Of a stretch of DNA of 64,000 bases, positions 469 through 61,480 are shown one piece after another (position 1 is the stretch's first letter; the number at the start of each line of letters is the position of its first letter). Source of the stretch: Rhina ancylostomus. Taxonomy: Eukaryota. The notes beneath the pieces were generated by a model that saw nothing but the letters and a program-made list of their open reading frames with translations, searched no databases and was not told the origin of the DNA. The stretch lies in the NCBI GenBank assembly GCA_030265395.1, contig JARFYF010000029.1, positions 20,144,700 to 20,208,699 on the forward strand. The letters are read 5' to 3'. Made by a program: the position numbers and the translations under genes.

Positions 469-625
469 GAAAAACACAATGCTGGAGGAACTCAGGAGGC
501 CAGACAGCAACCACAGAGAAAAACAGGCAGTCAACGTTTCAGGTCAGGACCGTTCTTCAGGATTGAAGATAGGAAAAGGGGAAGCCCGATATATAGGAAG
601 GAAAAGCAGAGCAGTGATAGGTGGA
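469..625 (-). mobile_element. Penelope-like element terminal repeat (pLTR) with hammerhead motif
   Basis: Shares the tgctggaggaactcag...cagca block with about 12 other copies in the window. Lies 3' of a PLE RT fragment on the same strand, across an N gap. Confidence 0.75.
528..565 (-). ncRNA. Minimal type I hammerhead ribozyme-like motif
   Basis: Minus strand reads CAAUC-CUGAAGA-A-CGGUCCUGACCU-GAAAC-GUU-GACUG. This gives the CUGANGA and GAAA cores, a short imperfect stem II, a palindromic ACGU stem III and 4/5 pairs in stem I. Confidence 0.65.
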
Positions 626-1143
626 NNNNNNNNNNNNNNNNNNNNNNNNNNNNNNNNNNNNNNNNNNNNNNNNNNNNNNNNNNNNNNNNNNNNNNNNNNN
701 NNNNNNNNNNNNNNNNNNNNNNNNNNNNNNNNNNNNNNNNNNNNNNNNNNNNNNNNNNNNNNNNNNNNNNNNNNNNNNNNNNNNNNNNNNNNNNNNNNNN
801 NNNNNNNNNNNNNNNNNNNNNNNNNNNNNNNNNNNNNNNNNNNNNNNNNNNNNNNNNNNNNNNNNNNNNNNNNNNNNNNNNNNNNNNNNNNNNNNNNNNN
901 NNNNNNNNNNNNNNNNNNNNNNNNNNNNNNNNNNNNNNNNNNNNNNNNNNNNNNNNNNNNNNNNNNNNNNNNNNNNNNNNNNNNNNNNNNNNNNNNNNNN
1001 NNNNNNNNNNNNNNNNNNNNNNNNNNNNNNNNNNNNNNNNNNNNNNNNNNNNNNNNNNNNNNNNNNNNNNNNNNNNNNNNNNNNNNNNNNNNNNNNNNNN
1101 NNNNNNNNNNNNNNNNNNNNNNNNNNNNNNNNNNNNNNNNNNN

Positions 1144-1341
1144 CGATGAGGCCATCATGATGGGGAATGGAGGTATACAGGGACTGGATATCCATGGTGA
1201 AGATGAGGTTGTATGTGCCGGAGAACTTAAAGCTATGGAAAAGTTGGAGAGCGTCTGATGTGTCATGGACAGATGTGGGAAGGGATTGGAACGGGGGGAC
1301 AGGATAGTGTCCAGGTACGAGGATATGAGCACCATGGGGCT
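1144..1341 (-). mobile_element. Penelope-like retroelement reverse transcriptase fragment (frameshifted)
   Basis: LISSYLDTILSP / FQSLPTSVHDTSDALQLFHSFKFSGTYNLIFTMDIQSLYTSIPHHDGL spans two frames. The MD-x-x-SLYT-x-IP motif is typical of the PLE/telomerase-like RT catalytic motif A. Confidence 0.8.
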
Positions 1342-1860
1342 TCCGTGGTTTCATCTAGATTCCTCCATTTGCAGTCCTTTGTTTCTCCAGTCATAAAAGC
1401 CATTGTCTGTTTAAATTCAGTTTGGTTCAAGAACCATCAGGTTATTCTCTGAACAAATGATGCCCAAACTGAATTTGTTTAACTTCAACTTCCCGGGACT
1501 GGTGTCAATCAGATGCAACCTATTGTTGTTGTCCTCCATCCCGTTAGGCTTCAAAGACCCAGGAAAGGAGTATAGGAGGCCAAATAAAAAGCAATGTTCC
1601 CTTCCTCCTTGGGCTGCACTTGGCACCTCTCTCACATTGGCATGACTGCATTTCATTCTTTTTGTTAAAAGTTTCTGTGCTCTTATACTTCACACCACAC
1701 AACTATCAGGATTTTTTTGTTTACAAAATAGTTTGACAGCTAAGTGAAACTCTTGTTCAGAAGACAAGTCTGCTGTGGGTGCAAAACCACAACAGTGAAA
1801 GGCTNNNNNNNNNNGATGGAGATGAAGATTAAATTGTTTACAGCTGTTTTTCTCTTACAG

Positions 1861-1950
1861 TTTTCCCAACTGATAAAGATCTCCCACACTCTGAGTCCAG
1901 AAAAATTCCCACTGATTGACCAGACTTTCTTCCCTAACCACAGAGAGATG
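1861..1950 (+). CDS. SYN3: Synapsin III internal exon (C domain), FSQLIKISHTLSPEKFPLIDQTFFPNHREM
   Basis: ttacag acceptor and gtgagt donor, 90 bp, phase 0/0. Closely matches the vertebrate synapsin III exon FSQLIKIFHSLGPEKFPLVEQTFFPNHKPM. Confidence 0.95.
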
Positions 1951-57722: not shown

Positions 57723-57990
57723 TACAGGCAACCCCCATGTTACGGCTATTTGGGTTACAGATATTCGCCCTTAAGGAATTCACAAATCACTACCTAAAAA
57801 TTTGAGATATGGAATAAAATTCACTCACGGAGTTTGTGTGAAAGAAATAAATCAACACAAAATTAATTTTTTTCAACTTGCATTTCTTGACGCATGCATA
57901 GATGATGCAGCTTTGTGTAATGGAAAATCACAATATGGTCCGTTTTCAGGGAACTGAAACTCTCCCCCTGCCTCCGTAGTTGGGGTGGGG
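57723..57990. mobile_element. Possible Tc1/mariner (Tigger-like) non-autonomous DNA transposon
   Basis: Left end ta|caggcaacccccatgttacg resembles Tigger-type TIRs; degenerate right end cgtagttggggtgggg. Confidence 0.45.
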
Positions 57991-59319
57991 GGATGTGTCA
58001 CTTGTGGTCTCAAAGACATGAGTTACCTATCTGATGAAAACATGAGGTTGTGTGAACATACACCAAGAGTTAATTTGGAAATGTCTCAGTCTGGCAATGA
58101 TTACCCAGAGCTATTTGTTCTGTGGCTTTTATCTTCTACTGGACTGATTATATATACATATCAGTTGTTCCTGAATTTAAAGCTAGTCACCTCCTTTATT
58201 TATTTTCTGTCTTTTCTAAACACTTCATCTGCTTAAATGTCATATTCCTCAATATTTTTACCAAGTTCCTGATATTTGCACCACATCATGGTCTGTTGTC
58301 ATCAGCCTCCTGTGCTGGCAGCCTAATGCATTCACAAACAGTAATGTTATAACACATCTAGTTCCTCTCGTCCATGTAGACGTCAGTGAGAACATAGCAG
58401 GTTTTGTCCATGATGCCCTCCAACGTTAAGCTCATTGTCAGATTATCTTTACCAGAAGAGGAGAAAAAGGGAAGTGCTGCAGTGAGACTGCGGACAATGA
58501 ATCCATGTGCTACCAGTGCTCCACAGGAAACAGTAATCCTTGACTGCCATCCTGTGGCAGGATTAGCAAACATAAACAAAAAAACCTCAAAGCATCCCTC
58601 TCTAATAGACTCCAACTTTTTACCTTTGACAGAGACTACAACTGTGATTAATTTGGATGTTATATGGCTGGGGGAAAGAAGCAGATGCAGTTCTTGACCC
58701 TGAATGGTTTCCACCTCCATCAGTGTTGGCATTTGAATGTCAAGGATGGCATCCACTAAGGCTTTTCTACTATCTGTTTGCCTTGTCTTAAATCAGATGC
58801 TGTTCCTAATCCTAGCCCTTTATGCTTGTAACTGAAGGTAGTCAATTGCTATTGTAAAGTAATAGTTTATGGATGTCAGTAACACCTGTTTGCTAAATAG
58901 TTAGGTAGTTATTGTGAGCGTTGCGTGTAACACATCATTCCTTTGCTCATTATTAAATGCAGCCTGTTATTACTTGCAATGATTACATTACTGCTGAACT
59001 CTTGGATGAAGAGTTAACACATTTTGTACTGAATGTTGTTCTTTTGGGGCTAAAAAGCAAGTCTTTCCTGGAGCAAGCTGGAAGGGAGTAACTGCTGTTG
59101 AAAGTTGCTGCTAACATCAATGGAAAAACAAATTGCATTGGTAGAGCTGCTACTTTTTTTTCTTCTGGAAAATGCCTATGATGTTTTCTTTTAATGTGAC
59201 AGAATGAGGTCATAATCCAATGGCGAGAGAGTACAGAGTATTGAAGTTCAAGCTACATGCATGCGTGCACGCGCGCGCACACACACACACACTCTCCATA
59301 CACATAGATGGATATAAGT

Positions 59320-59630
59320 CCTCTTCACAGTTCTTCCTCATCCCACTTCACCAATCCCTCCCCTCTTCAGAGGCTTTGCCTAATTGTTTTCCTCCTCAGC
59401 ACATCCCTCCTTATAGCCCCCGCTCTCTTCCTCTCACTCCTTTTCCCTTTCTGACCCCCTTCTCTCCTGTCCTCCCTCTCTCTCCTCTTGCTCACCCCCT
59501 TTTCCTTTCTCTCTTGCTCCCCTCTGCTGTCTGACTCATCCTTCCTCTTTCCCACTAACCCTAACCCTGTCCTCCCTCTTCATCTCCACCCGACCTCTGC
59601 CCCCCATTCTTCAGCCACCATTCCCTTGTT
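59320..59630. repeat. Polypyrimidine (CT-rich) low-complexity tract, preceded by a (GC)n(CA)n run at about 59265-59292
   Basis: Seen directly. Confidence 0.8.
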
Positions 59631-60439
59631 TCAGGGCCACTCTGCTAGTTGTCCTTCCATATTAGTATCCTGGTTCCAGCAGCCATATCACGTGAGACTA
59701 GTGGGGACCCTTCAAGAACCTCGGGTGTGTTCTAGCTGCATTTGTAGAACACCATAAACAAACTACGGCATGTCCTACAAAAGCATACACTACTAACTGG
59801 TTTATATTGAGATTATTCAGGAAGAGTTTCATAGGCTTTTAATGCAGAGGAAGAGCAGAACATCACAATCTTCCAATATTCTGCAATATTATCCACCGAC
59901 TTTGGTGTCCCCTCTTTTCTCCAGAGACAGAGAGATTTCAGTGGCATTTCAGCATCCAAATAAAGTTTTGACATTAAATTATTACTTTATAATTCCCACT
60001 CCTGGAATCTATCACAAAATTATAGCCTTCAGGATGTTGTACGAACGAGTGTTTGGAGACTGGTGGGATGGATGGGGATGGATTTGTTGGCTGTTGTGGG
60101 GCTGCGGGCATCTTCTGCCAGGTGGGAACAGGCCATTTCCTTGTGCATTCTCCCCACACCACAAAATACAGTGTGAATGTGGGACTTAGCAAGTAATCAT
60201 TCTCAGAAACAACATGCATAAAATCATCCCCAGAAACCCAATGTTCTGCCACACTGTAAGGATAAGCAATGTTGTGCATCAATTTACAGAGGTGCCAGAG
60301 CTTGGTTAATAGAGGATCCTTTCATGGATCACTGGAACATTTTGCGTTCAGCCACATTTTGTCATGACTTCCTTTCCAACACACAGACTGTAAAGTACAC
60401 GAACTTGATTAGATGGGACCAAGAAATTGCAAAATAACA

Positions 60440-61480
60440 TAGGCAGCTTAGTTTGTGAATAGAACAGTGACAGTTGGAGCTCAGAGCTGGCAAGTGTGAG
60501 TTGATCCATTCTGAATCTAAGAATGACAAATCAGAATATTTTCTAAATGGCAAGAGACTAGGAACTGTGGAAGAGCAAAGGAATTTAGTTGTCTGTGTAC
60601 ACAAATCACTCAGCCAAAATAATCAACAAAGCTGATGGAATGTTGGCCTTTATCTCAAGTGATCTGGAATGTAATGTAATGAGATGAAGATACACCACAG
60701 AGGCAGGGGACCTCAGTCATACTTCACCTAAAGGAAGGATATTTTGGCTTTTGAGCAGACACGGAGCAATTCAGCAGACGTGTTCCAGGAACTAAAGGGT
60801 TAAATTGCACACCCAGGTTGCATACATTTGACTTGTACTTCTCTAAAATTAGGAGACTGAAAGATGATTTAATTGAGGTCTAGAATTTTAAAGGAATTTG
60901 ATATAATGGGAGAGGTAGGTACAGAAAAACAATGCGCCACAGACTTTGATGGAATAAAATCAGAAAATGCCGAAAATAGCAGGTCAGGCCACATCTACGG
61001 GAAGAGAAGCAGAGCTAATGTTTCTGGTCAAAGACCCTTCATCGGAATTTGGAAACTTGGAAGGAGACAAAAGAAGCTTGTCAAGCTGCAGGGAGGCTGG
61101 GGGTGGGGGCGGAAATCTCTGATACCAGAATACTGNNNNNNNNNNNNNNNNNNNNNNNNNNNNNNNNNNNNNNNNNNNNNNNNNNNNNNNNNNNNNNNNN
61201 NNNNNNNNNNNNNNNNNNNNNNNNNNNNNNNNNNNTGACCTTGGGTATAAGCTCCATAAGAGCCACAAACTTTAATTAATAGTTGGGCCATTTGCTGGAG
61301 GTAATGCCAGCAGTAAAATCAGAAGCACCAGAAAATCTGGAACTTTCATTCCCTGTGTGGTTGCTAGGTTAATTGACATTTTCAGGAGAGAGATTGGGTG
61401 GAAACACACTATCAGCTGGCCAGTGGGTGCACAGTGAACCCAAGCATGCAGTTACAGTGTGCACAGTGGCTTACTCCTGA
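60440..61480 (+). mobile_element. Degenerate CR1-type LINE with a nested minus-strand PLE-derived repeat (about 60950-61135)
   Basis: ctaaatggcaagagact...gagcaaaggaatttagttgtctgtgtacacaaatcact...ggaatgttggcctttat; nested aatgtttctggtcaaagacccttcatcggaa. Confidence 0.7.

What the first reader, a model, noticed from the sequence alone, without database searches (positions are those of the whole stretch)
469..61135. Dispersed family of hammerhead-ribozyme-bearing Penelope-like repeats in the SYN3/TIMP3 introns
Seen: about ten sites share the layout stemI - CUGANGA - A - stem II hairpin (GGGUC..GACCY) - GAAAC - GUH - stemI'. They are at 528-565(-), 4684-4718(+), 20931-20966(+), 21291-21328(+), 25426-25463(-), 25703-25740(+), 41603-41640(-), 51061-51095(-), 53547-53580(+) and 61013-61049(-). 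Stem I covaries between subfamilies: CAGUC/GACUG at 25426 versus AGUU/AACU at 41603. Established: Penelope-like elements carry minimal type I hammerheads with a palindromic short stem III that work mainly as dimers. Inference: this lineage has abundant non-autonomous, retrozyme-like PLE derivatives, and the two overlapping pre-mRNAs contain such motifs on both strands. Most individual copies have core mutations and are probably inactive.
Basis: partly seen in the sequence, partly recalled or inferred. Interest (0 to 1): 0.75.

Follow-up and report, generated by a model that had tools for sequence, protein, structure and literature searches.

The report
Penelope retroelement ends with broken hammerheads
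These scattered ribozyme-like motifs are the short, decayed end pieces of a very abundant Penelope-type jumping gene in what is likely a shark or ray genome, a known arrangement that is likely inert here, with one twist: a large subfamily carries an altered ribozyme core that is predicted to cut poorly.

Summary
The repeat family is real: 10 of 10 sites, plus 5 further partial copies. Only 1 of 10 keeps an intact hammerhead core, and stem covariation in the window does not beat shuffles. The copies are ends of a Neptune-type Penelope-like element (PLE). One shares a 14-bp target duplication with a PLE reverse-transcriptase fragment. Three insertions show the PLE inverted-copy-plus-one-sided-tail layout. 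Invertebrate relatives carry the same minimal hammerhead 105-227 nt after the ORF. They are not retrozymes by the published test (no tandem of complete motifs).

Two details come from public contigs. (1) In the 25426/25703 subfamily (thousands of contigs, four coded organisms), core position 4 is A, not U, in most of the depth. This suggests amplification with a weak or dead ribozyme. (2) 5' junctions pile up at the start of stem I, not at the cut site. This fits copying of uncut RNA up to a nearby 5' end.

The scan has reported this family many times in other genomes, including the 5' pile-up; my look-up found no note of the A4 core. Verdict: new member of a known kind, low interest.

The parts
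469..625 (-). PLE end module: pyrimidine-rich upstream part, hammerhead 528-565 (only intact core; stem I 4/5, first stem II pair lost, GUU triplet), tail-less end at +91 from C3
1145..1340 (-). Frameshifted fragment of a PLE reverse transcriptase, same insertion as the 528 motif (a run of N lies between them)
   Evidence: tblastn E 2e-15, 64% identity
1345..1389 (+). Inverted piece consisting of the tail only
455..468 (.). Target duplication, left (13 of 14 identical to 1390-1403)
1390..1403 (.). Target duplication, right
4683..4790 (+). Solo copy starting at the motif, A9C core, no TSD found
13687..13820 (-). Solo copy with a heavily decayed head and full tail; 8-nt TSD candidate (p about 0.3)
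20929..21050 (+). Copy of the second subfamily (stem I 3' strand AACU-type), G8A+A13C, with tail
21200..21395 (+). Second-subfamily copy 361 nt downstream on the same strand, C3U and an extra base in stem III, tail-less; left edge approximate; 65 of 104 columns identical to its neighbour
25369..25551 (-). Left arm of an inverted pair, hammerhead 25426-25463 with A at core position 4, tail-less end
25597..25827 (+). Right arm of the pair, hammerhead 25703-25740 with A at core position 4, with tail; arms 78% complementary over 188 nt
25355..25368 (.). Target duplication, left (13 of 14 identical to 25828-25841)
25828..25841 (.). Target duplication, right
41510..41645 (-). Second-subfamily solo copy, three core changes, no TSD found
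47331..47463 (-). Solo copy with the core deleted; 10-nt TSD candidate right at the tail end (p about 0.05)
47972..48137 (.). Fold-back insertion without hammerhead, centred on the palindrome at the cut site; one arm tail-less, one with tail; 13-of-13 TSD at 47959-47971 and 48138-48150
50950..51090 (-). Solo copy starting at the core (A9C), flanked by a 36-nt, 78% direct repeat (50914-50949, 51091-51126; 0 of 150 random controls as good)
53551..53675 (+). Solo copy starting at the core; 13-nt TSD candidate (10 of 13, p about 0.25) just downstream of another retroelement's RT remnant
60916..61135 (-). Second-subfamily copy with U4C core and pyrimidine-rich upstream part
61966..62025 (-). Short copy starting inside stem II
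3070..3276 (-). Context: reading frame holding the last TIMP coding exon
26414..26542 (-). Context: first TIMP coding exon (edges approximate)
53037..56796 (+). Context: three synapsin exons (about 53037-53183, 55025-55116, 56683-56796)

Best explanation
The repeats are pasted-in end pieces (pseudo-LTR with a minimal hammerhead and tail) of Penelope-like retrotransposons, likely of the Neptune clade in a likely shark or ray genome, likely made when the element's enzyme primed on target DNA, began copying about 90-140 nt downstream of the motif and stopped early, most often at what is likely the RNA's 5' end just before stem I; the copies have since decayed and are predicted not to cut. Shown: homology, TSDs, inverted partners, one-sided tails, linkage to an RT fragment, broken cores, CpG decay, and the genome-wide pile-up of unrelated flanks at the start of stem I. 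Inferred: target-primed reverse transcription with internal initiation (by analogy to the anole PLE, PMC11167929), a transcription start at stem I, use of uncut RNA as template, and the clade. On this model a normal mRNA that begins in the 5' pseudo-LTR already carries a priming site about 100-140 nt from its 5' end. Priming there would give exactly these fixed-ended short copies without any separate retrozyme. The subfamily with A at position 4 likely spread with a weak or dead ribozyme.
For: A 14-bp TSD encloses the 528 motif and an RT fragment. Its relatives include whale-shark gene models and full-length RT + GIY-YIG proteins, 15 of 16 with the CX2-5CxxC linker. Three of three composite insertions have 13-14-bp TSDs and a tail on one side only, as described for PLEs (PMC8557442, passages). 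In 80 loci of related invertebrate PLEs the same descriptor finds 21 motifs against 0 in each of 10 shuffles. 10 of the 21 loci with an ORF end and at least 300 nt after it have a motif 105-227 nt downstream, and L001 has one in both pseudo-LTRs. 8 of 13 copies examined lack the pyrimidine-rich upstream part and start at or inside the motif; 5 keep it. Loose 5' ends at 25703-25706 with unrelated AT-rich flanks (agreement 0.32-0.39): 702 of 1949 partly laid contigs in X1, 907 of 2364 in X4, 168 of 589 in X15 (three positions shown). No comparable row appears at the cut site; the loose ends there are family sequence, agreement 0.56-0.60. Four CpG sites, including those holding core G12 and C17, show decay on both strands, 9-18% for the minor direction. 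Hammerhead mutants of the anole PLE still insert in vitro (PMC11167929).
Against: No endonuclease or full ORF is in the window, so the clade rests on relatives. A run of N hides how the RT fragment joins the end module, and it is shorter than the roughly 1.2 kb a full element would need. TSDs were clear for only 4 insertions; the rest are weak or absent. The loose-end table shows six rows per run (346 hidden), and contigs were chosen by at least 80% likeness to one decayed copy, so shares are biased. No RNA 5' end was observed. The centre of the 47972-48137 fold-back lies on the cut site, which a cleaved template would also give (n=1). The pyrimidine tract plus AG before stem I could be a splice acceptor rather than a start site.
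Confidence: 0.75

Rival explanations
1. The short copies are a self-propagating non-autonomous family. Solo end modules with their own promoter are transcribed and copied in trans by the PLE protein, like a SINE, with no need for cleavage or circles.
For: Fixed 5' and 3' ends, 110-145 nt length, thousands of contigs; Penelope has an internal promoter (PMC2377424, passages). Compatible with the main model as an addition.
Against: The same end module continues upstream in 5 of 13 copies and is linked to RT, 136-145 contigs in X1 and X2 continue with shared sequence beyond 25601. No feature private to the short copies was found.
Confidence: 0.15
2. One reading: retrozyme-like elements. Tandem units self-cleave as dimers, circularise, and are reinserted.
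For: 20931/21291 lie on one strand 361 nt apart, close to the 363-nt mean consensus reported for retrozymes of one chondrichthyan (bioRxiv 2026.07.22.740005).
Against: No tandem array holds the motif; both cores of that pair are broken and the copies match in only 65 of 104 columns; an 18-nt direct repeat suggests the first copy is a separate insertion; 5' ends do not pile up at the cut site.
Confidence: 0.06
3. Some copies are co-opted host elements that cut or fold the synapsin or TIMP pre-mRNA, for example the intact-core 528 motif in a long TIMP 3' UTR.
For: 528 is sense to TIMP, 2.5 kb past the stop; the only two polyadenylation hexamers in that stretch lie at 2201 and 166, so a long UTR would include it.
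Against: Stem I pairing probability is about 0 in three contexts; first stem II pair lost; no partner for a dimer; single minimal hammerheads showed no cleavage (PMC4209133); orientation 5:5; in the inverted pair 35 of 38 motif bases pair with the other arm.
Confidence: 0.04

Closest known systems
Minimal hammerheads (min-HHR) of metazoan PLE pseudo-LTRs (Cervera and De la Pena 2014, PMC4209133; text parts 1-2 of 4, supplement part 1 of 3 and term searches read)
   Same: Type I layout, extra A after position 9, two-base palindromic stem III, mostly single motifs, opposite-strand pairs 100-700 bp apart, thousands per genome, tied to truncated PLEs.
   Different: No cartilaginous fish in Table S1 or in term searches of the supplement. 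The core variant reported there is U3-A8; an A at position 4 was not found in the supplement text.
Endonuclease-bearing PLEs, Neptune clade (Craig et al. 2021, PMC8557442; passages read)
   Same: RT type, CX2-5CxxC linker and C-terminal GIY-YIG in nearest full-length relatives; inverted 5'-truncated partner; one-sided 30-40-bp tail.
   Different: Linker and endonuclease are absent from the window; Nematis shares the linker and was not excluded by a tree.
PAc Poseidon element of Anolis (Frangieh et al. 2024, PMC11167929; parts 1-2 of 4 read)
   Same: Two internal RT start sites define the tail; AT-rich targets; hammerhead not needed for insertion in vitro; no RNA ends seen at the cut site.
   Different: Other clade; its hammerhead has a canonical core and cleaves only with protein; a 5' pile-up at stem I is not described in the parts read.
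Non-LTR retrozymes (Li, Clavereau, Pollet, bioRxiv 10.64898/2026.07.22.740005; parts 1-3 of 5 read, supplements closed)
   Same: Derived from PLE pseudo-LTRs; found in one chondrichthyan; monomers dispersed along chromosomes.
   Different: Defined by tandem units each with a complete hammerhead; not met here. The closed supplements may hold consensus sequences related to this family.

Membership tests
PLE minimal hammerhead | Core CUGANGA ... GAAA ... UH | tested here: inconclusive
   Met in 1 of 10 copies. The majority of the 25703 subfamily has GAAA and UC but A at position 4.
PLE minimal hammerhead | [quoted passage not shown] | tested here: met
   A or C follows position 9 in the in-register read-out of all ten copies.
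PLE minimal hammerhead | G10.1-C11.1 pair | tested here: inconclusive
   G-C 2, G-U 5, A-U 2, other 3 of 12 cells; the C sits in a decaying CpG.
PLE minimal hammerhead | Palindromic 15.2-16.2 | tested here: met
   CG in 528; its decay products TG or CA in 8 of the other 9; the CpG is supported in contigs.
PLE minimal hammerhead | Self-cleavage as dimer or with protein | not testable with these tools
   Needs an assay.
Endonuclease-bearing PLE (Neptune) | PLE-type RT in the same insertion | tested here: met
Endonuclease-bearing PLE (Neptune) | C-terminal GIY-YIG and CX2-5CxxC linker | tested here: inconclusive
   Absent from the window (tblastn of 151 proteins); linker in 15 of 16 full-length relatives, GIY-YIG in 5 of 5 scanned.
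Endonuclease-bearing PLE (Neptune) | Inverted 5'-truncated partner and one-sided tail | tested here: met
   3 of 3 composite insertions.
Endonuclease-bearing PLE (Neptune) | Placement in the Neptune clade of an RT tree | not tested
   No labelled reference set at hand; Nematis not excluded.
Non-LTR retrozyme | At least two consecutive tandem units with complete hammerheads | tested here: not met
Non-LTR retrozyme | Circular RNA bounded by cut sites | not testable with these tools
   Only contigs were served.

The most novel reading that the evidence does not exclude
A PLE lineage whose hammerhead carries A at the otherwise near-invariant core position 4 founded a subfamily of thousands of copies shared by several cartilaginous fishes. 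Either this is a natural active core variant rescued by the element's protein, or it is in vivo evidence that Penelope elements spread without ribozyme cleavage. In the second case the motif would be kept as a fold or start signal at the RNA's 5' end, from which fixed-length mini-insertions are mass-produced by internal priming.
Probability: 0.35. Interest if true: 0.5.

Novelty: new member of a known kind. Interest (0 to 1): 0.24.

Why it matters
The main result is ordinary: fossil PLE ends with minimal hammerheads have been known since 2014. What the hammerhead does for endonuclease-bearing PLEs is still stated as unclear (PMC8557442). A high-copy subfamily with A4 beside U4 sister lineages in the same genomes is a ready natural comparison. 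If A4 dimers do not cut, even with protein, cleavage is dispensable in vivo. If they do, the hammerhead core has a tolerated variant that descriptor searches miss.

Tried and rejected
No whole genome is held, so genome-wide alignment and a covariation test on many copies could not be run.

Rfam: 13 weak matches, none a hammerhead.

Pattern scans with the conserved tail found 0 loci in metagenome, prokaryote and viral contigs. Blastn of the window copies against 80 invertebrate-type loci printed no match.

Run search: no RNA holder listed; the two runs guessed to be RNA (X14, X16) are contigs and say nothing on expression, ends or strand.

Splice-acceptor reading of the 5' pile-up: disfavoured, not excluded. 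Loose ends share no exon-like consensus, the 53551 copy abuts another repeat, and the relatives' motifs printed mostly have a T-rich tract without AG just before stem I. In D. virilis an intron does end at helix I.

Alignment clipping as the cause of the pile-up: the reference copy departs from the family at 25700, which would clip at 25701, not 25703-25706; partly controlled only.

A Pfam match to Myotoxins at 50759-51076(-), E 0.024, 15 bits against a cut-off of 25: chance.

Literature: hammerhead + Penelope + shark, Penelope + elasmobranch terms and hammerhead + CAGAUGA gave no paper on this family or core; the library lacks most subscription papers.
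Full report
Observation. The ten motifs are at the stated places and belong to one repeat family. Copies match each other by blastn, and an HMM of the ten also finds five clear further copies and one weak one. The hammerhead description fits the family, not the copies. 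Read in register, 1 of 10 has an unchanged core (528-565) and the rest carry one to three changes. A structure-only scan finds that one copy at zero mismatches; at two mismatches it finds 6 motifs, 2 of them family members, against 0-6 in 12 shuffles. Rfam gives no hammerhead, and no copy folds as one on its own. The stem register is right (63% paired against 23-43% when slid), but covariation rests largely on one pair and does not exceed shuffles (146/500).

Setting. Pfam places a TIMP gene on the - strand and synapsin exons on the + strand. The synapsin paralogue is unresolved, with synapsin II scoring best. The TIMP3 label rests on my recollection of its C-terminus, not on a call. The host is inferred to be a cartilaginous fish, because four named relatives of the RT are whale-shark gene models (the other five looked up had no name). 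The ten motifs lie 5 on each strand.

What the repeats are. The 528 motif and an RT fragment at 1145-1340 lie inside one 14-bp target duplication, with an inverted tail piece at the far end. The fragment matches a PF00078 protein at 74%. A search with that protein returns full-length relatives with RT, a CX2-5CxxC linker (15 of 16) and GIY-YIG (5 of 5 scanned). That linker marks Neptune and Nematis (PMC8557442, passages); only Neptune and Poseidon were reported in vertebrates (bioRxiv 2026.07.22.740005), so Neptune is inferred. Two more composite insertions, 25369-25827 and 47972-48137, have 13-14-bp duplications, opposite arms and a tail on one arm only. Tail-less ends fall at +89 and +91 from C3 and tailed ends at +119 to +142. 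In related invertebrate-type loci the same motif occurs 21 times in 80 loci (0 in 10 shuffles), 105-227 nt after the ORF in 10 of 21 informative loci, and in both pseudo-LTRs of L001. Their stems differ in sequence, though the descriptor selected them for pairing.

Abundance and decay. At 80% likeness, 16,369, 15,618, 20,099 and 734 contigs of runs X1, X2, X4 and X14 lie on the 361-nt stretch around 25703, and 6,604, 8,257, 259 and 3,334 of X1, X4, X16 and X15 on a 95-nt stretch. These are not copy numbers. Four CpG sites in the motif, including those at core G12 and C17, show loss on both strands. This is what methylation-driven decay after insertion gives (established knowledge).

Core variant. 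Both arms of the 25369-25827 pair read A at position 4, so the template already had it. In contigs, T makes up 13.9, 10.8, 16.4 and 16.3% of depth at 25709 and no other letter reaches 4%. At 25731, where the reference copy itself has mutated, 94-97% show the family letter. Independent loose-end lines in X1, X2 and X4 also read A there. So A4 is the majority form of this subfamily in coded organisms A, B, D and F. The caveat is that contigs were recruited by likeness to an A4 copy, so the share holds only for this subfamily. Among the 21 relatives' motifs, 19 have U, 2 have C and 0 have A (any base allowed). Mutations in the CUGA turn other than the C3/G8 swap gave low activity in a full scan (PMC9901934, passages). 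A natural U4C variant is weak in vitro yet sufficient in a viroid (PMC3088659, passages and section 8). A4 is therefore predicted to be weak, not shown to be dead. My searches found no paper and no earlier scan note on it.

5' ends. Eight of 13 copies examined lack the pyrimidine-rich upstream part, and TSD-bounded ones start at the core or a few bases before stem I. In contigs the largest 5' loose-end rows are at 25703-25706, with unrelated AT-rich flanks: 702 of 1949, 907 of 2364 and 168 of 589 partly laid contigs (six rows per run shown, 346 hidden). At the cut site the loose ends are family sequence. A stall at RNA structure would be expected on the 3' side of a stem, so an RNA 5' end at stem I is the simpler reading (inference). 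The sequence there resembles a polymerase II initiator (recalled consensus, not tested). Earlier scan notes proposed this reading; the contig counts are my test of it.

Mechanism. Most likely the element's RNA begins at about stem I. The PLE protein nicks AT-rich DNA and primes at one of two internal sites downstream of the motif, as shown for the anole element, whose hammerhead mutants still insert (PMC11167929). Priming near the RNA's 5' end runs off after 110-145 nt and gives the short copies; priming at the 3' end gives longer, truncated copies; a second, inverted product gives the fold-backs. Single minimal hammerheads did not cleave in vitro (PMC4209133). In the inverted pair 35 of 38 motif bases pair with the other arm. 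Activity in the host pre-mRNAs is therefore unlikely.

Against this reading. No endonuclease is in the window. The N run between RT and end module is too short for a full element unless it is under-sized. Several TSDs are weak. No RNA end was seen. One fold-back is centred on the cut site. The 20931/21291 spacing of 361 nt is close to the reported chondrichthyan retrozyme length, though both cores are broken and no tandem array holds the motif.

Novelty. Dispersed single motifs and opposite-strand pairs from truncated PLEs were described in 2014 for fishes, coelacanth and frog. Cartilaginous fish are not in that table, but a 2026 preprint includes one, and this scan has met the family in at least six other genomes. 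Verdict: new member of a known kind, interest 0.24. The A4 subfamily is the only lead worth a bench test.

Noticed in passing
window 33368-33472 and 56431-56535: Two copies, 89% alike over 105 nt, of another repeat; the - strand looks like the tRNA-derived head of a SINE (label recalled, not tested).
   Followed up: no
window 53319-53501(+) and 43998-44156(-): Decayed RT remnants of another retroelement (tblastn E 4e-8 and 1e-6), probably CR1-type LINEs (recalled); the 53551 copy sits just downstream of the first.
   Followed up: partly
window 43175-43243: A 69-nt near-perfect hairpin, weak Rfam match to mir-4637 (37.7 bits against a cut-off of 89); origin unknown.
   Followed up: no
window 28574-28828 and 46165-46358: Minisatellites of 27 nt (G-rich) and 45 nt period; neither holds a hammerhead.
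   Followed up: no
window 4688 and 51092: Two separate copies share C at core position 9 and a GACAA stem I strand, so a third subfamily may have its own fixed core change; 61045 has U4C.
   Followed up: partly
window 53037-56796(+): The synapsin hosting this TIMP scores best on synapsin II, not III, in two exons; the pair may not be the SYN3/TIMP3 orthologue.
   Followed up: partly
P0001: The closest RT match is deposited as a Proteus mirabilis hypothetical protein on a 474-nt contig; likely fish DNA contaminating a bacterial assembly.
   Followed up: no
L001:910-4176: Apparently complete Neptune-type element in a metagenome contig: 964-aa ORF between two 201-nt pseudo-LTRs, each with an intact minimal hammerhead ending in GUA.
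   Followed up: partly
window 166-3070(-): Only two polyadenylation hexamers follow the TIMP stop (2201, 166); use of the far one would put the RT-bearing insertion and the intact-core motif in the 3' UTR.
   Followed up: partly
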